From Escherichia coli (lineage in GTDB: Bacteria; Pseudomonadota; Gammaproteobacteria; Enterobacterales; Enterobacteriaceae): a stretch of DNA of 64,000 nt. The stretch lies in the NCBI RefSeq assembly GCF_003790525.1, contig NZ_CP033635.1; one strand, written 5' to 3'. Under the pieces are notes generated by a model that did no database searches, had not been told where the DNA came from, and saw nothing but the letters and a program-made list of their open reading frames with translations. Numbering within the stretch: the first letter of the stretch is position 1; the number at the start of each line of letters is the position of its first letter. Below are positions 7,067-24,683 of the stretch, in pieces. The position numbers were made by a program, and so were the translations under genes.

Positions 7067-7459
7067 TTAACGATAATTCACAATCACTTCATTCCGTTGT
7101 ACCTTTAGCGGCGGAATTAACCGCCCACCGCCAGGCACTTCCCAGATAAAGCGCAACGGTTCTGCCGCCGGTATACCGGAAAAGGCCACGGTGGTTCCGC
7201 TCTGCCCCTCTAATTCGACACAACGAGATTGTGAACACAAGCGAACCCGCAGCCCTACGGGAGTTGGGCCGATAAGCTGATAACGCCACGCCACCAGCGT
7301 CATCAATCCTGAAGCAGGTTGTCGAGTAGAAAGAGGCGCTGACGACATCGACTCACCACGGTGATTCAGCGTAACGCCCACACTACTCGCCTGCCACATC
7401 CCCTCTCCGGCGGCTTGCACCAGCAGCGGAAACAATAATATTGCTAATAAGGTTCTCAT
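7067..7459 (-). CDS. flhE: flagellar protein FlhE
   Basis: ORF MRTLLAILLFPLLVQAAGEGMWQ... recognised as FlhE. Confidence 0.93.
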   Translation of the reverse strand: MRTLLAILLFPLLVQAAGEGMWQASSVGVTLNHRGESMSSAPLSTRQPASGLMTLVAWRYQLIGPTPVGLRVRLCSQSRCVELEGQSGTTVAFSGIPAAEPLRFIWEVPGGGRLIPPLKVQRNEVIVNYR

Positions 7460-9537
7460 CATTTACCGCCAATTGTCGCCGTCATGCGGATATGTCGGTT
7501 ATCAGACAGTTCCAGATTCGACAGCACCACTAACTGCGGCAGACTGCGGCGCAGGAAGCGAGACAATAAAGGTCGCAGCGCGTGGTTCACCAATAAAACT
7601 GGCGGCGCACCCAACATCTCCTGACGGGATAGCGCTTCCTGAGTTTGCGCCAGTAAACGATCCGCCAGCCCTGGCTCCAGTCCGCCCCCGCCCTGCAGCG
7701 CCTGTAGTAACAAACGTTCCAGCGGTGTATCGAGGCCAATAACATGGACTTCATCTTTGCCAGGAAACCACTGCTGGGTAATCGCCCGTCCCAACGCCAC
7801 GCGCACGACGGCGGTTAATTCATGTGGATCGCTTTGGATGGGCGCATGTTCCGCCAGCGTTTCGAGAATAGTGCGCATATCGCGAATCGGTACTTTTTCA
7901 TCGAGCAGATTTTGCAGCACTTTATGCAGTGTGGTGAGCGTGACGACGCCAGGAACGAGATCTTCCGTCAGCTTTGGCATCTCCTGGGCGACGCGATCCA
8001 GCAGCTGTTGCGCCTCCTGACGACCAAACAGCTCTGCGGCATGCTGGCTAATGAGGTGGTTAAGATGCGTTGCCACCACCGTGCTGGCCTCAACCACGGT
8101 GTATCCCTGAATCTGCGCCTGTTCTTTAAGCGCACTTTCAATCCAGATAGCATTCAGGCCAAATGCCGGATCGACGGTCGCCTCACCAGGTAACGTCCCG
8201 GCAGCGGTACCAGGGTTAATCGCCAACCAACGCCCCGGATAAGCATCACCACTGCCTATCTCCACGCCTTTCATCAAAATGCGATAGCGGGCAGGTTGCA
8301 GATCCATATTGTCGCGAATGTGCACCACCGGCGGCAGAAACCCCATCTCCTGGGCAAATTTCTTGCGAATACTGCGTATACGGCCCAGCAACTCACCATC
8401 CTGCTGGAAATCGACCATCGGGATCAGGCGATAACCCACTTCCATTCCCAGAGAATCTTCCAGTTGTACATCGTTCCACGTCGCTTCGACAACGGTATTA
8501 TTCTCTGCCATTTTTACCGGTTTTGGTTCGGCAGGCGCTTTTTGTTCACGTCCACGGATCCACCAGGCCAGCCCCAGCAATCCGGCAGTGAACAGCAAAA
8601 ATACCAGGTTTGGCATTCCAGGCACCAGGCCGAGTAAACCGAGCACGGCGGCGCTTAACAACATAACGCTTGGGTTACTGAAAAGCTGATTCACCATCTG
8701 CTCGCCAACATCCTGATCGGTGCTGACACGCGTAACGATGACCCCCGCGGCGGTAGAAATCACCAACGCCGGAATTTGTGCCACCAGACCGTCGCCAATG
8801 GTCAATAGCGTATAACTTTCCGCCGCGTGTCCCATGCTCATGCCATGTTGCAGCACGCCGACCAGCAACCCGCCGACAACGTTAATGACCATGATGAGGA
8901 TCCCGGCGATGGCATCGCCGCGAACAAACTTACTTGCCCCATCCATTGAGCCGTAAAAATCGGCTTCCTGAGTCACTTCGGAGCGGCGTTTTTTCGCCTC
9001 ATCTTCACCAATCAATCCAGCGTTAAGGTCGGCGTCAATCGCCATCTGCTTACCCGGCATGCCATCGAGAACAAAGCGCGCACCCACTTCTGCGATACGC
9101 CCGGCACCTTTGGTAATGACCATAAAGTTGATGATCACGAGAATGACAAACACCACGATACCGATAGCGAAATTGCCACCAACGAGGAAGTGACCGAACG
9201 CTTCGACCACCTTTCCAGCCGCCGCCGCGCCGGTATGCCCTTCCATCAAAATGATACGGGTTGAAGCCACGTTAAGTGCCAGACGCAACAGCGTGGTAAA
9301 CAACAGGATGGTCGGAAACGCAGCAAACTCAAGCGTGCGCTGGGTAAACATCGCCACCAGCAACACCATGATCGACAAGGCAATATTGAAGGTAAACAGC
9401 AGGTCGAGTATGAATGCGGGCAGTGGCAGTACCATCATCGACAAGATCAACAGGATCAAAATCGGTCCGGCAAGGATCTGCCATTGTGTCGATTTCAGGT
9501 TTGCGGGCAGGCGCAGCATCGCGGCCAGATTACTCAT
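7459..9537 (-). CDS. flhA: flagellar export apparatus protein FlhA
   Basis: 692-aa ORF MSNLAAMLRLPANLKSTQWQILAGPILILL... Confidence 0.97.
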   Translation of the reverse strand: MSNLAAMLRLPANLKSTQWQILAGPILILLILSMMVLPLPAFILDLLFTFNIALSIMVLLVAMFTQRTLEFAAFPTILLFTTLLRLALNVASTRIILMEGHTGAAAAGKVVEAFGHFLVGGNFAIGIVVFVILVIINFMVITKGAGRIAEVGARFVLDGMPGKQMAIDADLNAGLIGEDEAKKRRSEVTQEADFYGSMDGASKFVRGDAIAGILIMVINVVGGLLVGVLQHGMSMGHAAESYTLLTIGDGLVAQIPALVISTAAGVIVTRVSTDQDVGEQMVNQLFSNPSVMLLSAAVLGLLGLVPGMPNLVFLLFTAGLLGLAWWIRGREQKAPAEPKPVKMAENNTVVEATWNDVQLEDSLGMEVGYRLIPMVDFQQDGELLGRIRSIRKKFAQEMGFLPPVVHIRDNMDLQPARYRILMKGVEIGSGDAYPGRWLAINPGTAAGTLPGEATVDPAFGLNAIWIESALKEQAQIQGYTVVEASTVVATHLNHLISQHAAELFGRQEAQQLLDRVAQEMPKLTEDLVPGVVTLTTLHKVLQNLLDEKVPIRDMRTILETLAEHAPIQSDPHELTAVVRVALGRAITQQWFPGKDEVHVIGLDTPLERLLLQALQGGGGLEPGLADRLLAQTQEALSRQEMLGAPPVLLVNHALRPLLSRFLRRSLPQLVVLSNLELSDNRHIRMTATIGGK

Positions 9538-10678
9538 GGGACGGTTTCTCGTTAATAAAATCCAGGGCTTCCGGCACCGGAAGATGAGTAGGTTGTACAG
9601 GGCGCTGTCCTCCAGCCAGACGCCAGCGTTTCAGTTGCCAGACCCAGGCCAGCACTTCCGCTACCGCGGCGTACAGTTGACCCGGGATTTGTTGACCGAT
9701 CTCCGCATGTCGATACAGCGCTCGCGCCAGCGGCGGCGCTTCAAGCGTAGGGACGTTATTTTCAGCACCAATTTCACGAATGCGCAGCGCGACCAGTCCT
9801 GCACCTTTAGCGACCACTTTCGGTGCGCTCATTTTGTTTTCGTCATACTGCAACGCTACCGAATAGTGGGTTGGGTTATTGACAATGACATCCGCTTTCG
9901 GCACATCGGCCATCATCCGACGCCGCGCGGCAGCTCGCTGCATCTGACGTATCCGCCCTTTAACATGGGGGTCGCCTTCGCTTTGTTTGAACTCATCACG
10001 AATATCCTGCCGCGACATTCGCAGCTTTTTCAGGTGGCTGAAGATTTGGAAAAAGACGTCAAATCCCACCATCGGAATAACACCAAGCACCACCAGCAGT
10101 GCGCATAGCCCTACCAGATCCATCGCATTACCCATGGCGGTAATCGGAGACTCGGCCATTAAGCGCATCATCTGCGGCCAGTGATGCCAGAGAAAAAACC
10201 CCGTCACGCTGCCAACCAGGATGGTTTTCAAAATTGCCTTAAGCAACTCCGCGCCAGTCTGTGCCGAGAACATCCGTTTAATGCCCGGTAGCGGGTTGAG
10301 TTTGGAAAACTTCGGCTGCAAGGATTTGCCGCTAAATACCAGCCCCCCCAGCATAACCGGAGAAATAATCGCCACCAGCACCACGCCGCTAATCAGCGGT
10401 AGCAGCGCCAGCATGGCTTCTCTGATCAGCAGAATAATCTGCCCGAGGATCAAATTCGGGTCATTGATAATACTGTGATCAAAATGCAGCCCAGCGGAGA
10501 GCATGCCCGACAATCGACGGGCCAGCGACACACCGCCAAACCAGATAACACACACGCCCACTAACAAAATCAGCAGCGAGGTCAGTTCACGGGAACGCGG
10601 GATTTGCCCCTCTTCCCGCGCTTTTTCTAGTCGGTGAGGTGTGGGGGCTTCTGTTTTGTCGTCGCTCTCGTCAGACAC
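9530..10678 (-). CDS. flhB: flagellar export apparatus switch protein FlhB
   Basis: 382-aa ORF with NPTH autocleavage motif (VIVNNPTHYSVAL). Confidence 0.97.
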   Translation of the reverse strand: MSDESDDKTEAPTPHRLEKAREEGQIPRSRELTSLLILLVGVCVIWFGGVSLARRLSGMLSAGLHFDHSIINDPNLILGQIILLIREAMLALLPLISGVVLVAIISPVMLGGLVFSGKSLQPKFSKLNPLPGIKRMFSAQTGAELLKAILKTILVGSVTGFFLWHHWPQMMRLMAESPITAMGNAMDLVGLCALLVVLGVIPMVGFDVFFQIFSHLKKLRMSRQDIRDEFKQSEGDPHVKGRIRQMQRAAARRRMMADVPKADVIVNNPTHYSVALQYDENKMSAPKVVAKGAGLVALRIREIGAENNVPTLEAPPLARALYRHAEIGQQIPGQLYAAVAEVLAWVWQLKRWRLAGGQRPVQPTHLPVPEALDFINEKPSHE

Positions 10679-10914
10679 GTCGCCAATCCTGGAAAGAGTA
10701 TTAAGCGTAAATGATGCCAGATCGCAAAGCGTTCAATGGTTTGAGTAAGGGGCAAAACAGGCGGGATTTAGGGCGTTTATGCAAAAAACAGGTTCAGTTG
10801 CAGAACGTTTTGCGAACCATTTTCCAGTTCTGATATTTAGCCATTTAGCCTATAGAATCGCCCACCGCCTCTCTGTTAGTTTGCTAATAATTAAATTATT
10901 ACAAAGGCGATCAA
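10679..10914. promoter_or_regulatory. divergent intergenic region: flhBAE class-2 promoter region (minus) and putative promoter of the inserted cassette (plus)
   Basis: 236-bp gap between divergent starts; candidate sigma70-like elements ttgcga (10810-10815) and tatagaat (10851-10858); RBS aagg 9-12 nt upstream of ATG 10915. Confidence 0.4.
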
Positions 10915-12423
10915 ATGGAATGGCAACAATTGCTTAACTGCAACCGTCGGAAAGATAATCTAAAAAAAACCAGCATAGAATTTTTACATCCCCTTGCTAG
11001 CGGAAGACAAGAGATCGAGCGGGATTACGACCGATTACTTTTTGCTGCGCCAACTCGTCGGCTTGCGGATAAAACACAAGTTTTCCCGTTAGATCAAAAT
11101 GACAGTATACGGACGAGGCTGACTCATTCTCACGAAGTAGCAAACTTTGCTCGCGGAATAGGAATGAGACTCGCTTTCGAGATGAAGGAACACATCTTTG
11201 GCGAAATACCCACGGGGATTGTCGTTGAACGCGACGTTCCTGCTCTGTTAGCAGCGATCGGACTGGCACACGATCTCGGTAATCCACCATTTGGGCATCA
11301 AGGTGAAGCAGCGATGCGCGCATGGTTTAATAAAAATCTTCCAGGCCTTCTTGATAAAGAAGTAAACAGCGAAATATATAACGACTTTCTGCAATTTGAT
11401 GGAAACTCACAAACCCTACGCCTGGTTACCAAATTACAAATTATTAACGATAACTTTGGTCTGAATCTGACCTATGCCACGCTGGCTGCACTGATCAAAT
11501 ATCCCCGAGCTTCATATTCATCGGACAAACATTGGAAAAAGCACGGTTTTTTCTATTCTGAGCATGAGGTTGTCATGGATGTCTGGCAGCAAACGGGCCT
11601 TGGCGTACCAGGTAATGATGCCGGTTGCCGCCACCCATTTACCTGGATAATGGAAGCTTGCGACGATATTGCCTACTCTGTGCTTGACGCAGAAGATACC
11701 ATCAAGAAAGGATTTGCCTCATACCAGGATTTGCGTGATTTTTTGATGTCACAATCCGAGCCGAACGATGTAATTCAACATGTTATTGAAGCTGTAGAGG
11801 CCAAAAATGACGCCTGGAAAGAGCAAAGAAATGCACTTTCACCGGCGGAAATTAATGAACTCAGTATGCAAATGTTCAGAGTTTATGCCACCAGTGCATT
11901 GATTAATGCCGTAGTAGAAGCCTTTCGCGAACAATTACCCACGCTGATGCAGCGTGACTGCCCGTTCAAAGATTTAATCTCGCAAAGCAAAGGTCACGCT
12001 CTCTGCACTGCCCTGAAAATGTTCGACCGAACACGAGGCTACCTTCATCGTTCAGTCTTGCAACTGGAACTTAGGGGATCTAATTACATTACTAACTTGA
12101 TGGATATGCTCTGGATTGGCATCCATGGACACAAAACAAAGAAACAACGAGACGGAGAACGCGAGTCCGCGTCTGCAGATAACCTTTTTGTTTCTCGTGA
12201 AGAATACCTGTCGGATACTCCCTTTGGTCGCTATGCTTACGGGACAATCTCTGAAAATTATCGCCGTGTGTTTGAAGATCCCGCCAATACACTCCCTGCT
12301 CTTTATAAAGAAGCGCAGTTGCTTACCGACGCAATCTCAGGCATGACGGATAGTTATTTAATGCGCCTTCACGATGAGCTAAAATCACTGTATGAATGTG
12401 GTCTCAAACACCCAACAGCTTGA
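10915..12423 (+). CDS. dGTP triphosphohydrolase (Dgt)-family HD-domain protein, extra paralog in non-native locus
   Basis: 502-aa ORF; motifs RRLADKTQVFPL, RTRLTHSHEV, HDLGNPPFGHQGE, FDGNSQTLRL, WIMEACDDIAYSVLDAEDTI, ISGMTDSYL align with E. coli Dgt by eye; AT-rich; opposite strand to flanking flagellar genes. Confidence 0.8.
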   Translation: MEWQQLLNCNRRKDNLKKTSIEFLHPLASGRQEIERDYDRLLFAAPTRRLADKTQVFPLDQNDSIRTRLTHSHEVANFARGIGMRLAFEMKEHIFGEIPTGIVVERDVPALLAAIGLAHDLGNPPFGHQGEAAMRAWFNKNLPGLLDKEVNSEIYNDFLQFDGNSQTLRLVTKLQIINDNFGLNLTYATLAALIKYPRASYSSDKHWKKHGFFYSEHEVVMDVWQQTGLGVPGNDAGCRHPFTWIMEACDDIAYSVLDAEDTIKKGFASYQDLRDFLMSQSEPNDVIQHVIEAVEAKNDAWKEQRNALSPAEINELSMQMFRVYATSALINAVVEAFREQLPTLMQRDCPFKDLISQSKGHALCTALKMFDRTRGYLHRSVLQLELRGSNYITNLMDMLWIGIHGHKTKKQRDGERESASADNLFVSREEYLSDTPFGRYAYGTISENYRRVFEDPANTLPALYKEAQLLTDAISGMTDSYLMRLHDELKSLYECGLKHPTA

Positions 12424-13144
12424 ACAGCGTATCGCCGATTTTTTTACGCTTAGTGATGAGCATAAGAAAGCCAGAGTATTACTTGATACTCTGGCCTGTT
12501 CCTGTCCGGCCTGGATTTTTGGCGGGATGGTGCGTGACTTAGGCTTGTTTGGCGTCGAGGGATTCTCTTCAGACCTTGATATCGTCATCGGTCGCTCCCG
12601 TGAGGAACTCTTCCGGACATTGGCTGAACTGCCCGTCAAACAACTGCGTTTTAATAAGTTCGGTGGGATCCGTTTTCGTTATCACGACTTCGAATTTGAT
12701 ATCTGGAACCTCAATGAGACATGGGCATTTCGGGAAAAACTTATATTTTGTGAGGATGAATCAAGTCTGTTAAACACTACGCTGATGAGTTGGGATGCCG
12801 TGCTCTATGATCTACGTAGTGAAAAAATTATCAGTAAAGATAATTATTTGACCGACTTAAATCGCAGACATCTTGAACTTGTTCTTCATACTAACCCCAA
12901 TCCAAGCGGTTCGGTAACGAAAATTTTACGCACTATTTTTACTAAGCAGGTAAAGAGTTTAGGTCCGGAACTCTGTCATTTCTTGCACCATGAACTGACG
13001 AAAAAACGTTATGAAGTTTGGCATCATTACGATGTACTGCACTACCAGTCATCGTCATTTTCTCGTTCACAATTTAATGCGTTGATAAATTTACTGGCGC
13101 AACAATCACGCTTCGCTGATCTAAAATTATCAAATTACAAATAA
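12392..13144 (+). CDS. Pol-beta superfamily nucleotidyltransferase, CCA-adding/poly(A) polymerase head-like
   Basis: 250-aa ORF with IFGGMVRDLGLFGVEGFSSDLDIVI, matching the GGxVRD...DxD head motif of class II tRNA nucleotidyltransferases; overlaps preceding gene by 32 nt; very AT-rich. Confidence 0.55.
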   Translation: MNVVSNTQQLEQRIADFFTLSDEHKKARVLLDTLACSCPAWIFGGMVRDLGLFGVEGFSSDLDIVIGRSREELFRTLAELPVKQLRFNKFGGIRFRYHDFEFDIWNLNETWAFREKLIFCEDESSLLNTTLMSWDAVLYDLRSEKIISKDNYLTDLNRRHLELVLHTNPNPSGSVTKILRTIFTKQVKSLGPELCHFLHHELTKKRYEVWHHYDVLHYQSSSFSRSQFNALINLLAQQSRFADLKLSNYK

Positions 13145-13231
13145 CCATCCTCCACATACTTCCTGAACGATACCCGCCCCCCTGCTATCGGCCTGGCATC
13201 ATCGCGCAGGCCGAAGTTAAGGCAATACAAA

Positions 13232-13876
13232 TCAAAATCCAAGACTATCCAACAAATCGTCCACCTGATCCTGACTGGCTACCACACCGGCTTTGCTGGT
13301 ATCGACCTGAGGTCCATTAAGCAAACTCTGGTTTTCACGTTTTGGACGCGACTCCTGTTCCGGGATGTTTTCCAACAGCACCATCAGCAACTGACGTTCG
13401 ATCTCCTGAATGACATCCATCATCCGCTTAATGACCTGCCCGGTGAGATCCTGAAAATCCTGCGCCATCATGATTTCCAGCAGTTGCGCGTTAGTAAAGC
13501 TGGTATGCGCGGGGACATCTGCCAGAAATTGCCGCGTATCTGTTACCAGTTCACGGGCGTCGGCAAGGTCAATCGGATCGGCAAACCAGTCATCCCAACG
13601 TTGGGTTAACGCTTTTGCTGATTTCTCCATTTGATCCTGATGCGGTTGTGACGCCTCAACACTGTTCAGCGCCCGCTCCGCAGCCTGGGCGGTCATCTGC
13701 ACAACATAGTACAAACGATCGCGCGCATCGGGGATGGCTTCCGCCGCTTCGGCAATGGCCTGATCCAGCCCCAGCTCCCGCAAACTGTCGCGCAGCATAC
13801 GCGTCAGGCTGCCGATGCGCGCAATGATATCGCCAGCTGAATGCTCGTCAGCAGGTTTGATTGATGGTTGCATCAT
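13232..13876 (-). CDS. cheZ: CheY-P phosphatase CheZ
   Basis: [35 protein letters not shown]... (214 aa from MMQPS). Confidence 0.96.
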
Positions 13877-13886
13877 AGTCGCATCC

Positions 13887-15340
<1,454 letters not shown>

Positions 15341-19530: not shown

Positions 19531-19561
19531 AAGGCACCTTCCTGAAAACAAGTTGATCTCG

Positions 19562-19588
19562 TTATCGGCAAGGAAGGGGGAAACTTTA
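19562..19588 (-). promoter_or_regulatory. sigma28 (FliA) class-3 promoter of tar-tap-cheRBYZ operon
   Basis: Minus-strand TAAAGTTT-N11-GCCGATAA, perfect consensus. Confidence 0.9.
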
Positions 19589-20198: not shown

Positions 20199-23090
<2,892 letters not shown>

Positions 23091-24104: not shown

Positions 24105-24683
24105 TTAAACAGCCTGTACTCTCTGTTCATCCAGCAGTTGTGGGATAATATCGGCAGGATTCTGGGAAAGTTTACGTCTTTTTACTGCCCGGGATGGCGG
24201 TTGACATAAGCTGCAGGCAAAGCTGCCAACAGGCTGGTGAGCGTGGGTAATAAAATTGCCGCCGCAGCAGTTGCAGCTGGAAAGTTGCAGTAATCCACTT
24301 TCAACAAACCGCACCAATGTCCAGGCACGGGTTAATGCCAGCAGTGGTCCTTCTTCTGCTTGTGGGCACTGTTCAAGGTATAAACGGTAGGCTTTGATCA
24401 CCGCATCGACGCCATTACACAAACCGGTTTTCAGTAAAAACTGCCATGCATTACAGAACATCGAAGCATGAACGTTTTGTTCCCAGGTCATAAACCAGTC
24501 GGTTGAGAATGGCAGCATGCCTTTCGGCGGTGGGCTTCCGCGCAGTTCTTTATAAAGTTTTATCAGGCGTCCGCGACTTAACTGTGTTTCGCTTTCCAGC
24601 ATCTGCAAACGAGCGCCCAGGGTGATCAATTCCATTGCCAGCTGAATATCCCGCGCTTCCTGAACAATGCTTTTTTCACTCAT
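24105..24683 (-). CDS. flhC: flagellar master regulator FlhC
   Basis: 192-aa [30 protein letters not shown]... Confidence 0.97.

What the first reader, a model, noticed from the sequence alone, without database searches (positions are those of the whole stretch)
10679..10914. Cassette promoter shares a 236-bp divergent region with the flhBAE class-2 promoter
The Dgt-like gene starts 236 bp from the divergently oriented flhB start, so the insert's promoter must lie within or next to the FlhDC-dependent flhB control region. This opens the possibility that expression of the inserted genes is tied to the flagellar regulon, which is relevant because flagellotropic phages infect motile cells. It could also perturb flhBAE expression.
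Basis: inference. Interest (0 to 1): 0.4.

Follow-up and report, generated by a model that had tools for sequence, protein, structure and literature searches.

The report
Clover defence operon beside flhB promoter
The 236-bp gap between flhB and the dGTPase gene holds two separate back-to-back control regions: the intact flagellar FlhDC site for flhB, and a promoter that belongs to a known anti-phage operon (Clover, cloA-cloB), so the layout looks ordinary and nothing in the sequence ties the defence genes to the flagellar regulon.

Summary
flhB (GTG at 10678, minus strand) and the dGTPase-like gene (ATG at 10915, plus strand) diverge across exactly 236 bp in E. coli SMS-3-5.

- **Junction.** Homology to K-12 ends at 10774-10778. 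That is the distal edge of the flhB FlhDC box (10735-10777, positions -57 to -99), and the box is intact. The remaining ~136-140 bp belong to the cassette.
- **Cassette.** It is the published Clover defence system: the CloA dGTPase plus the CloB nucleotidyltransferase.
- **Promoter.** The cassette side carries an extended -10 element (TGTTAGTTT, 10874-10882) and an upstream element (10798-10815) at a fixed 63-64 bp spacing. Both are conserved in orthologous cassettes of at least eight genera. These include Atlantibacter, Pluralibacter and Erwinia, where flhB is not the neighbour.
- **Flagellar signals.** The cassette-side DNA has no sigma-28 promoter and no second FlhDC box. The distance from the FlhDC box to the cloA elements varies between genera.

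cloAB most likely has its own sigma-70 promoter, independent of FlhDC and FliA. No transcription start site or expression data were available to confirm this.

One unexpected result: this Clover clade sits between flhB and cheZ in Escherichia, Enterobacter, Cronobacter, Pseudescherichia and Buttiauxella. It is therefore an old resident of this locus, not a recent E. coli insert.

The parts
9530..10678 (-). flhB coding sequence (GTG start at 10678), first gene of the class-2 flhBAE operon
   Evidence: ORF list; Pfam Bac_export_2 E=4e-128; RefSeq annotation
10679..10734 (-). Native flhB core promoter and 5' leader (positions -1 to -56). It differs from K-12 at two bases. The -10 element and start site are inferred, not mapped.
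   Evidence: Alignments A1 and A2. The position downstream of the FlhDC box is inferred from the usual class-2 promoter layout.
10735..10777 (-). FlhDC box of flhB. Distal half-site AACGCCCTAAATCCCG (10762-10777), 11-bp spacer, proximal half-site CCTTACTCAAACCATT (10735-10750); positions -57 to -99 from the GTG.
   Evidence: Weighted scan with the consensus AAYGSSNNAAATAGCG-N10-12-CGCTATTTNNSSCRTT (consensus from PMC9962212). Score is 34 against 25.8 +/- 1.7 for the best hit in shuffles. The same -99..-57 position is the best hit in 8 of the 11 spacers scanned, and the other three lie within 2-8 bp of it. The K-12 FlhDC ChIP-seq peak centre falls at about -65 (PMC4183435; coordinate conversion is inferred).
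10774..10779 (.). Left boundary between K-12-homologous DNA and cassette-specific DNA. It sits at the distal edge of the FlhDC box.
   Evidence: Alignments A1 and A2; identical in five E. coli cassette alleles
10798..10815 (+). Conserved upstream element ('block A', TTGCAGAACGTTTTGCGA). The TTGCGA core lies 63-64 bp upstream of the extended -10 element. The factor that binds it is unknown.
   Evidence: Alignment A4 has invariant T-G-x-G columns. The spacing is fixed in 11 of the 13 loci of that alignment, including Atlantibacter and Pluralibacter, which lack flhB next door; the core is degenerate in the two Erwinia loci. The only other match in the 64-kb window is at 20840.
10830..10858 (+). 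Second sigma-70-like site (CTGATA-17-TAGAAT). Possible secondary promoter, only partly conserved.
   Evidence: Consensus scan, 9 of 12 matches. The TAG of the -10 hexamer is kept in 8 of 13 loci, but the final T often is not.
10874..10882 (+). Extended -10 promoter element TGTTAGTTT (TG-n-TAGTTT). Predicted main cloA promoter, with a predicted start site near 10889.
   Evidence: The motif TGNTANNNT occurs exactly once per 160-bp upstream region, always at -36 to -50 from the ATG, in 17 of 18 loci. Chance is about 0.03 per sequence. The columns are invariant in alignment A4. The start site is inferred.
10904..10907 (+). Shine-Dalgarno-like AAGG, 7 nt before the cloA ATG
   Evidence: Read from the sequence; an A-rich AGG/GGA block is present in the orthologues
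10915..12423 (+). cloA: Clover dGTPase (HD-domain dNTP triphosphohydrolase), 502 aa
   Evidence: PADLOC dGTPase E=5.8e-71; Pfam HD. Full-length match to the Salmonella CloA structures 9P8S-9P8V, E=5.6e-191, with the HD, HE and metal-binding residues conserved.
12392..13144 (+). cloB: Clover Pol-beta-type nucleotidyltransferase, 250 aa; overlaps cloA by 32 bp
   Evidence: Invariant GG-x2-RD and SD-x-D-x-V motifs in 22 homologues. It lies immediately downstream of a CloA homologue in 41 of 43 species-level loci, and a further locus retains a CloA remnant. No Pfam, PADLOC or PDB sequence hit.
13189..13213 (.). G+C-rich hairpin between the convergent cloB and cheZ genes. Likely a transcript end or insulator; it has no U-tract in E. 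coli.
   Evidence: RNA fold -24.3 kcal/mol, z = -3.3. A comparable hairpin is present in every genus examined, and several of them have U-tracts on both strands.
13232..13906 (-). cheZ, last gene of the sigma-28-driven tar-tap-cheRBYZ operon; convergent with cloAB
   Evidence: Pfam CheZ E=7.4e-77. A perfect sigma-28 consensus for the tar promoter lies at 19588 on the minus strand.

Best explanation
The 236-bp spacer is two independent control regions placed back to back. The flhB-proximal 96-100 bp (10679-10778) is the native class-2 flhB promoter, and its FlhDC box (10735-10777) is complete. The other ~136-140 bp belong to the Clover anti-phage operon (cloA dGTPase, cloB nucleotidyltransferase). 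That side carries the operon's own sigma-70 promoter of the extended -10 type (TGTTAGTTT, 10874-10882; predicted start near 10889; leader about 26 nt). It also carries a conserved upstream element (10798-10815) that probably binds an unidentified regulator. A hairpin next to cheZ closes the unit at its 3' end. cloAB is therefore most likely transcribed autonomously and not as part of the FlhDC or FliA regulon, and flhBAE control is left intact.

Shown directly: the coordinates, the junctions, the position and conservation of the FlhDC box, the conservation of the promoter motifs, and the identity of the genes. Inferred: the start sites, promoter use, and independence from FlhDC and FliA.
For: - Junction at 10774-10778, identical in five E. 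coli alleles.
- The best FlhDC-box hit is at -99..-57 from the flhB start in 8 of 11 spacers scanned, and within 2-8 bp of that in the other three. It scores 34 against 25.8 +/- 1.7 in shuffles and agrees with the K-12 ChIP-seq peak.
- A single TGNTANNNT motif lies at -36 to -50 from the cloA ATG in 17 of 18 orthologous upstream regions; chance is about 0.03 each. Its columns are invariant in otherwise ~48% identical DNA.
- Block A keeps a fixed 63-64 bp spacing to that motif, also in Atlantibacter and Pluralibacter, where the upstream neighbours are fimbrial or LysR genes.
- The IGR has no sigma-28 promoter: the best candidate has 6 of 16 mismatches, whereas the tar promoter control is a perfect match.
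- The cassette-derived DNA has no FlhDC-like box; scores are at shuffle level.
- The distance from the FlhDC box to block A varies between genera (33, 33, 36, 46 and 50 bp), so nothing constrains their relative position.
- A terminator-like hairpin lies between cloB and cheZ in every genus.
- Cassette identity.
Against: - No start-site or expression data exist for this locus. The Clover study expressed the operon from pBAD and does not mention native promoters or flagella.
- The promoter rests on conservation and consensus only.
- The gene pair is kept beside flagellar and chemotaxis genes in at least seven genera. That could reflect a functional link rather than history.
- Divergent promoters about 185 bp apart can be coupled through DNA supercoiling without any shared binding site (established from other systems, not tested here).
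- The E. coli cloB-cheZ hairpin has no U-tract, so read-through from the strong sigma-28 tar operon into the antisense strand of cloAB is not excluded.
- The factor that binds block A is unknown, and it could be a motility-related regulator.
Confidence: 0.7

Rival explanations
1. FlhDC coupling. FlhDC bound at the flhB box, or the negative supercoiling produced by active flhB transcription, also stimulates the divergent cloA promoter. Clover levels would then rise in cells that are building flagella.
For: The FlhDC box edge lies only 21 bp from block A and about 112 bp from the predicted cloA start site. The flhB-cloA arrangement, with a spacer of about 234-261 bp, is kept in Escherichia, Enterobacter, Pseudescherichia, Cronobacter and Buttiauxella. 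Other flagellar class-2 operons come as divergent pairs with a single FlhDC ChIP peak (flgA/flgB and fliE/fliF; PMC4183435).
Against: Relative to the predicted cloA start site the box spans -112 to -154. That is outside the -30 to -80 range in which FlhDC contacts RNA polymerase at class-2 promoters (general knowledge of FlhDC boxes; alpha-CTD contact noted in PMC9962212). The box-to-block A distance varies by 0-17 bp between genera, with no helical phasing. The same cloA promoter elements persist without flhB in Atlantibacter, Pluralibacter and Erwinia. One relative (L008) has a 472-bp spacer.
Confidence: 0.13
2. Antisense coupling from the chemotaxis operon. In motile cells, sigma-28-driven tar-tap-cheRBYZ transcripts read past cheZ into the antisense strand of cloB and cloA. 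This would lower Clover expression or change the CloA:CloB ratio.
For: A perfect sigma-28 consensus tar promoter points towards cloB. The E. coli hairpin after cheZ has no U-tract on either strand. In the cassette-bearing allele the REP-like hairpins that follow cheZ in K-12 are replaced. Convergent adjacency to cheZ is the most widely conserved feature of the locus, kept even where flhB is absent.
Against: Every genus has a strong G+C hairpin in the short cloB-cheZ spacer. In Cronobacter, Enterobacter hormaechei and E. quasihormaechei, and Atlantibacter subterranea it has the form of a two-way intrinsic terminator, which argues for insulation. In K-12 almost no read-through past cheZ was detected (PMC4183435), although K-12 has a different spacer.
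Confidence: 0.08
3. The main E. coli cloA promoter is the CTGATA-17-TAGAAT site (10830-10858), not the extended -10 element. It would still be autonomous and still inside cassette DNA.
For: It is the only plus-strand hit of the sigma-70 consensus scan in the IGR, with 9 of 12 matches. TAGAAT is close to TATAAT. The T-A-G is conserved in 8 of 13 orthologues.
Against: The scan found fewer sites than expected by chance (3 against 4.7). The -35 hexamer is not conserved, and one E. coli allele changes it to CTGAGA. The critical last T of the -10 hexamer is missing in most orthologues. The extended -10 motif at 10874-10882 is far better conserved.
Confidence: 0.2

Closest known systems
Clover anti-phage system (CloA dGTPase + CloB nucleotidyltransferase; Yamaguchi et al., bioRxiv 2025, PMC12265719)
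   Same: Same two-gene order with overlapping reading frames. CloA aligns full-length to the Salmonella CloA structures (E=5.6e-191) with the catalytic HD, HE and metal-binding residues intact. CloB has the Pol-beta GG...D-x-D motif.
   Different: This is a distinct clade, about 60% identical to the Salmonella CloA. Its CloA is longer (502 aa against 471-473), with about 20 extra residues near positions 406-430. It sits at a fixed chromosomal site between flhB and cheZ instead of in a mobile defence island. By operon length, the experimentally tested systems appear to be of the defence-island type (inference). Native regulation has not been described for any Clover system.
Divergent class-2 flagellar promoter pairs (flgAMN/flgBCDEFGHIJ and fliE/fliFGHIJK)
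   Same: Back-to-back operons with an FlhDC site in the shared spacer (PMC4183435).
   Different: Here only flhB has an FlhDC box at class-2 distance. The cloA side has its own extended -10 promoter more than 110 bp from the box, and it keeps that promoter in genomes where flhB is not adjacent.
Stand-alone defensive dGTPase (Shewanella Sp-dGTPase; Tal et al. 2022, preprint 10.1101/2021.04.26.441389)
   Same: HD-domain dGTPase that depletes dGTP during infection. The PADLOC dGTPase model hits the window protein.
   Different: Sp-dGTPase is a single gene with no CloB partner. It matches only a short region of the window protein (E=2.5e-24 to 9P8W). The Clover paper reports that it forms a hexamer and is constitutively active.
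Housekeeping E. coli Dgt
   Same: Same HD-domain dGTP triphosphohydrolase fold family (4X9E, E=1.2e-37). RefSeq labels the window gene 'dgt'.
   Different: The similarity is distant. The window gene is an accessory gene, present in 106 of 5426 complete E. coli genomes, and it is paired with CloB.

Membership tests
Clover defence system | CloA: HD-domain dNTPase with an HD motif, an HE catalytic dyad and metal-binding His/Asp residues | tested here: met
   The alignment to 9P8S shows HSHEV, AHD-x-GNPPFGHQGE and CDDIAY conserved over the full length, E=5.6e-191.
Clover defence system | CloB: Pol-beta-superfamily nucleotidyltransferase with a [D/E]h[D/E] active-site motif, encoded directly downstream of cloA | tested here: met
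   Invariant G44 G45, R48 D49, S60 D61 and D63 in 22 homologues. It overlaps cloA by 32 bp. The pairing holds in 41 of 43 species-level loci. No profile or solved structure was available for an independent check.
Clover defence system | Function: phage defence by dGTP depletion, activated by dTTP and restrained by the CloB product p3diT | not testable with these tools
   Known only from experiments on the Salmonella and E. coli H5 systems. This clade has not been tested.
FlhDC (class-2) regulon member | An FlhDC box placed about 30-80 bp upstream of the gene's own start site | tested here: not met
   The only significant box (10735-10777) is positioned for flhB. It lies -112 to -154 from the predicted cloA start site. 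The cassette-derived DNA has no box.
FlhDC (class-2) regulon member | Transcription lost in flhDC mutants | not testable with these tools
   No expression data were found for this locus.
FliA (class-3) regulon member | A sigma-28 promoter, TAAAGTTT-N11-GCCGATAA, upstream of the gene | tested here: not met
   The best IGR candidate has 6 of 16 mismatches. Known class-3 promoters in the same window score 0-2.
Mobile-element insertion (transposon, integron cassette or island) | Terminal inverted repeats, target-site duplication, or an integrase or transposase | tested here: not met
   No repeats at the junctions. Only two genes lie between flhB and cheZ. The CloA identity pattern follows that of FlhB across genera.

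The most novel reading that the evidence does not exclude
The conserved position of this Clover clade between flhB and cheZ reflects selection for coupling a nucleotide-depleting antiviral enzyme to the motile state. The position holds in Escherichia, Enterobacter, Cronobacter, Pseudescherichia and Buttiauxella, and the link to cheZ persists in Atlantibacter and Pluralibacter. The coupling could work through divergent FlhDC-driven flhB transcription (supercoiling or long-range activation), through convergent sigma-28-driven tar-cheZ transcription, or through a motility-linked factor that binds the conserved block A element.
Probability: 0.1. Interest if true: 0.6.

Novelty: new member of a known kind. 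Interest (0 to 1): 0.25.

Why it matters
In practical terms this clarifies an annotation. The 'dgt + hypothetical protein' pair next to flhB in SMS-3-5, ST648 and about 2% of complete E. coli genomes is a Clover defence operon with its own promoter, and it leaves the flhB FlhDC box intact.

The analysis also gives testable coordinates for the native Clover promoter and for a conserved upstream element. Published work expressed Clover only from an inducible plasmid.

The wider point is modest. This defence system is not in a mobile island. It has stayed at one core-genome site next to flagellar genes across several genera. If that position turned out to be functional, it would link phage defence to motility state, but the sequence evidence here argues against direct FlhDC or FliA control.

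Tried and rejected
- **Sigma-28 promoter in the spacer.** Rejected: best candidate has 6 of 16 mismatches, while the window's own tar, motA and fliC-region promoters score 0-2.
- **Second FlhDC box serving cloA.** Rejected: scores are at shuffle level in cassette-derived DNA and in orthologues without flhB. One of seven (Erwinia persicina) reached p of about 0.01, which I take as chance. The second-best hit in the spacer overlaps block A but misses the key A9-A13 positions.
- **Known RNA element in the spacer or leader.** None: Rfam has no hit below E=0.1, and the leader fold is not unusual.
- **Transposon-like borders.** No terminal repeats or target duplications.
- **A general defence hotspot at cheZ-flhB.** Not supported. 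In the rows listed, cassette-free E. coli genomes span only 836-849 bp across the site, i.e. it is empty, and the genome-wide place counts leave little room for other cargo. One odd case (ST2747) is a deletion. The E. coli defence-island survey does not mention flhB or cheZ.
- **Identity of block A.** I compared it by eye with the CRP, NrdR, sigma-54, ArcA and TyrR consensus sequences as I remember them. None fits across the orthologues. The motif is not repeated upstream of other flagellar operons in the window.
- **Mapped flhB start site or DNase footprints.** The key J. Bacteriol. papers are not held in the library, so the flhB -10 element and start site remain inferred.
- **Technical failures.** Two searches were rejected for input format and so was one pattern search. 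One over-strict pattern returned nothing.

Full report
**1. What is in the window**

The window is the E. coli SMS-3-5 chromosome (100% identity to NC_010498.1). The local gene order is:

- flhE, 7067-7462, minus strand
- flhA, 7459-9537, minus strand
- flhB, 9530-10678, minus strand, GTG start
- a 236-bp gap, 10679-10914
- a 502-aa HD-domain gene, 10915-12423, plus strand
- a 250-aa gene that overlaps it by 32 bp, 12392-13144, plus strand
- cheZ, 13232-13906, minus strand, followed by the rest of the tar-tap-cheRBYZ operon

The two extra genes have lower G+C (0.40-0.47) than their flanks (0.52-0.58). The cloA start codon is supported by a conserved N-terminus (M-E/Q/K-W-x-x-L-L-N) in 17 orthologues.

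**2. Where the junctions are**

In K-12/DH1, cheZ and flhB are separated by 201 bp that contain REP-like palindromes (fold; I recognise the REP character from the consensus as I remember it). Alignment shows that the window matches K-12 from the flhB start out to 10774 (position -96). Three more matching A's extend this to 10778 (position -100). On the other side, homology resumes at 13220, 12 bp beyond the cheZ stop codon.

About 2.44 kb therefore replaces about 90 bp of K-12 spacer. Five E. coli cassette alleles, 98.3-100% identical, share exactly the same junction. No terminal repeats or target duplications flank the segment.

**3. The flhB side**

I scanned the spacer with the published FlhDC consensus AAYGSSNNAAATAGCG-N10-12-CGCTATTTNNSSCRTT, weighting its most conserved positions (PMC9962212). 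The best hit lies at -99 to -57 from the flhB start, which is window 10735-10777. It scores 34, against 25.8 +/- 1.7 for the best hit in shuffled sequence.

The same -99..-57 position is the best hit in K-12, three Enterobacter species, Cronobacter and Buttiauxella. It is -98..-56 in one Pseudescherichia locus, and within 2-8 bp of that in the remaining loci. This positional conservation supports the box independently of the score.

The FlhDC ChIP-seq peak for flhBAE in K-12 is centred at 1964280 in NC_000913.2 coordinates (PMC4183435). I converted that coordinate using the tar promoter motif listed in the same paper and the NC_000913.3 annotation. It comes out at about -65, inside the predicted box. 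The conversion is an inference.

The cassette boundary therefore sits at the outer edge of the FlhDC box and leaves it complete. The one difference inside the box is an A-to-C change at -97, which improves the match to the consensus (AAYG). Nothing in the sequence suggests that flhBAE control is damaged. The flhB -10 element and start site are inferred, because the primary footprinting papers were not available.

**4. What the two extra genes are**

The 502-aa protein matches the PADLOC dGTPase model (E=5.8e-71). It also aligns over its full length with PDB entries 9P8S-9P8V (E=5.6e-191), and the catalytic motifs HSHEV, HD-x-GNPPFGHQGE and CDDIAY are conserved. Those entries are the Salmonella CloA protein of the Clover defence system (PMC12265719).

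In Clover, CloA is a dGTPase that is switched on by the rise in dTTP caused by phage. CloB is a nucleotidyltransferase that makes an inhibitory dinucleotide, p3diT, which keeps CloA off in uninfected cells.

The 250-aa partner has no Pfam, PADLOC or PDB sequence hit. It does carry the invariant GG-x2-RD ... SD-x-D-x-V signature of Pol-beta nucleotidyltransferases. It follows a CloA homologue in 41 of 43 species-level genomes found by a pattern scan, and one more locus retains a CloA remnant. These genomes range from Gammaproteobacteria to Bacillota.

The cassette is therefore a Clover operon, which is a known kind of system. It belongs to a distinct clade, about 60% identical to the Salmonella CloA, with about 20 extra residues near positions 406-430. 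The Clover study expressed its operons from pBAD. The words 'promoter' and 'flagell-' do not occur in its text.

**5. The cloA side of the spacer**

I collected the 160 bp upstream of cloA from 18 loci. These DNAs are only about 48% identical on average. Two small islands stand out.

- **Extended -10 element.** The motif TGNTANNNT occurs exactly once per sequence in 17 of 18 loci, always 36-50 bp before the ATG. The chance of this is about 0.03 per sequence. The T, G, T, A and T columns are invariant in alignment A4. In the window this is TGTTAGTTT at 10874-10882. It predicts a start site near 10889, a leader of about 26 nt, and an AAGG ribosome-binding site at 10904-10907.
- **Block A.** A bipartite element, TTGCAGAACGTTTTGCGA in the window (10798-10815), has its TTGCGA core 63-64 bp upstream of the extended -10 motif in 11 of the 13 loci of alignment A4. 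I could not assign it to a known regulator.

A further consensus hit, CTGATA-17-TAGAAT at 10830-10858, is only partly conserved. It may be a secondary promoter.

Both conserved elements lie entirely in cassette-derived DNA.

**6.

The same Clover clade occurs in several different neighbourhoods:

- **Between flhB and cheZ:** Enterobacter, Cronobacter, Pseudescherichia, 'Escherichia sp. ESNIH1', Buttiauxella and an unnamed assembly.
- **Next to cheZ only:** Atlantibacter subterranea, A. hermannii and Pluralibacter gergoviae. Here the tar-cheZ operon is still convergent on the right. The upstream neighbours are fimbrial genes in A. subterranea and a LysR-family gene in Pluralibacter, and flhBAE is absent from the left flank in all three.
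- **No flagellar operon adjacent:** Erwinia; E. rhapontici has only a chemoreceptor-like gene upstream.
- **Classical defence islands:** more distant pairs, next to type I restriction genes, GmrSD and transposases.

The extended -10 motif is kept in all of these. Block A with its fixed spacing is kept in Atlantibacter and Pluralibacter, so the promoter does not depend on an adjacent FlhDC box.

Among the flhB-linked genera, the distance from the FlhDC box to block A is 33, 33, 36, 46 and 50 bp, and one relative has a 472-bp spacer. No spacing or helical phase is conserved between the two control regions. By contrast, each region keeps a strict spacing to its own gene.

Relative to the predicted cloA start site, the FlhDC box spans -112 to -154. 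That is outside the usual activation range for class-2 promoters.

The spacer has no sigma-28 promoter: the best candidate has 6 of 16 mismatches, while the window's class-3 promoters score 0-2. The cassette-side DNA has no FlhDC-like box. No known RNA family matches.

**7. The 3' end of the cassette**

The short cloB-cheZ spacer holds a G+C-rich hairpin in every genus. In Cronobacter, two Enterobacter species and Atlantibacter subterranea it looks like a two-way intrinsic terminator with U-tracts on both strands.

In E. coli the hairpin (13189-13213; -24.3 kcal/mol, z = -3.3) has no U-tract. Antisense read-through from the sigma-28-driven tar operon therefore cannot be excluded, and I keep it as a minor rival explanation. 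In K-12, read-through past cheZ was barely detectable (PMC4183435), but K-12 has a different spacer.

**8. History of the locus**

The cassette is present at this one site in 106 of 5426 complete E. coli genomes. In the cassette-free genomes listed the site is empty, and the place counts leave little room for other cargo. The E. coli alleles differ by up to 1.7%.

Across genera, CloA identities cluster in the same way as FlhB identities:

| Comparison | FlhB identity | CloA identity |
|---|---|---|
| Within Enterobacter | 93-99% | 83-95% |
| Within Pseudescherichia | 98-99% | 85-89% |
| Between genera | 73-85% | 66-70% |

One exception is E. coli against the unnamed assembly L008, where CloA is 80% identical but FlhB only 82%. 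The overall pattern fits long residence at this site, with loss in most E. coli lineages or exchange through the conserved flanking genes. It does not fit a recent insertion. This conserved position next to flagellar genes is the one unexpected result. I did not find it described.

**9. Verdict**

However, every sequence-level test points to two independent, non-overlapping control regions and to autonomous sigma-70 transcription of cloAB.

Direct FlhDC or FliA control is unlikely but not experimentally excluded. Supercoiling coupling and antisense read-through remain low-probability alternatives.

The system is a new member, in a distinct chromosomally fixed clade, of a known defence family, and its promoter layout is ordinary. 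Interest is low to moderate and rests mainly on the conserved synteny with flagellar genes.

Noticed in passing
window 10915-13144; loci L008, L010-L012, L016, L017, L023-L028, L031, L032, L058: This Clover clade sits between flhB and cheZ in Escherichia, Enterobacter, Cronobacter, Pseudescherichia and Buttiauxella. It stays convergent with cheZ in Atlantibacter and Pluralibacter, where flhBAE is not adjacent. The CloA identity pattern follows that of FlhB. This is a defence system fixed at a core flagellar locus rather than in a mobile island.
   Followed up: yes
window 10798-10815 (block A): A conserved bipartite element (TTrCA-N6-7-TTGCGA) lies a fixed 63-64 bp upstream of the cloA extended -10 motif across genera. 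I could not match it to any regulator consensus, and no binding factor is known.
   Followed up: partly
window 10760-10775 (flhB positions -82 to -97): A published study places the binding site of the sRNA EsrF in the 'flhB 5' UTR' at -82 to -97 (PMC8092317). These are the same bases as the distal FlhDC half-site, which should lie upstream of the class-2 start site. The two claims are hard to reconcile unless transcripts from further upstream exist.
   Followed up: no
L015 2365-5038 (Enterobacter hormaechei); hit H40 (E. coli 1532MA): In some strains the cassette is interrupted by an insertion sequence. An IS3-family transposase splits cloA in one E. hormaechei genome, and an IS1 lies within the E. 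coli 1532MA copy. Loss of CloA alone is tolerated; loss of CloB is reported to be toxic.
   Followed up: no
L003 1-504 (E. coli FDAARGOS_944): flhB is annotated as a pseudogene with an internal stop in one cassette-bearing strain. This is a single case and says nothing about any effect of the cassette.
   Followed up: no
L008 3079-3550: In the closest non-E. coli relative (CloA 79-80% identical) the flhB-cloA spacer is 472 bp, not about 236 bp. About 236 extra bases of unknown origin lie between the FlhDC box and the cloA elements.
   Followed up: no
L058 3482-4542 and L032 2763-4561 (Buttiauxella): Buttiauxella izardii retains only fragments of cloA and cloB between flhB and cheZ. B. massiliensis has a 220-bp structured spacer after cloB. 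The cassette appears to be decaying in this genus.
   Followed up: no
L013/L014 3632-5831 (Atlantibacter hermannii): A. hermannii carries a second, distant Clover pair (CloB 36% identical) in a defence island with type I restriction genes, QueC-like genes and a macro-domain gene. Its 2200-bp operon length equals that reported for the experimentally tested E. coli H5 Clover, which suggests the tested systems are of this mobile type.
   Followed up: partly
window 19561-19588 (-): A perfect sigma-28 consensus (TAAAGTTT-N11-GCCGATAA) lies at the tar promoter. I used it as the positive control. Other class-3-like sites lie at 24174(-), 49911(-) and 50004(+).
   Followed up: partly
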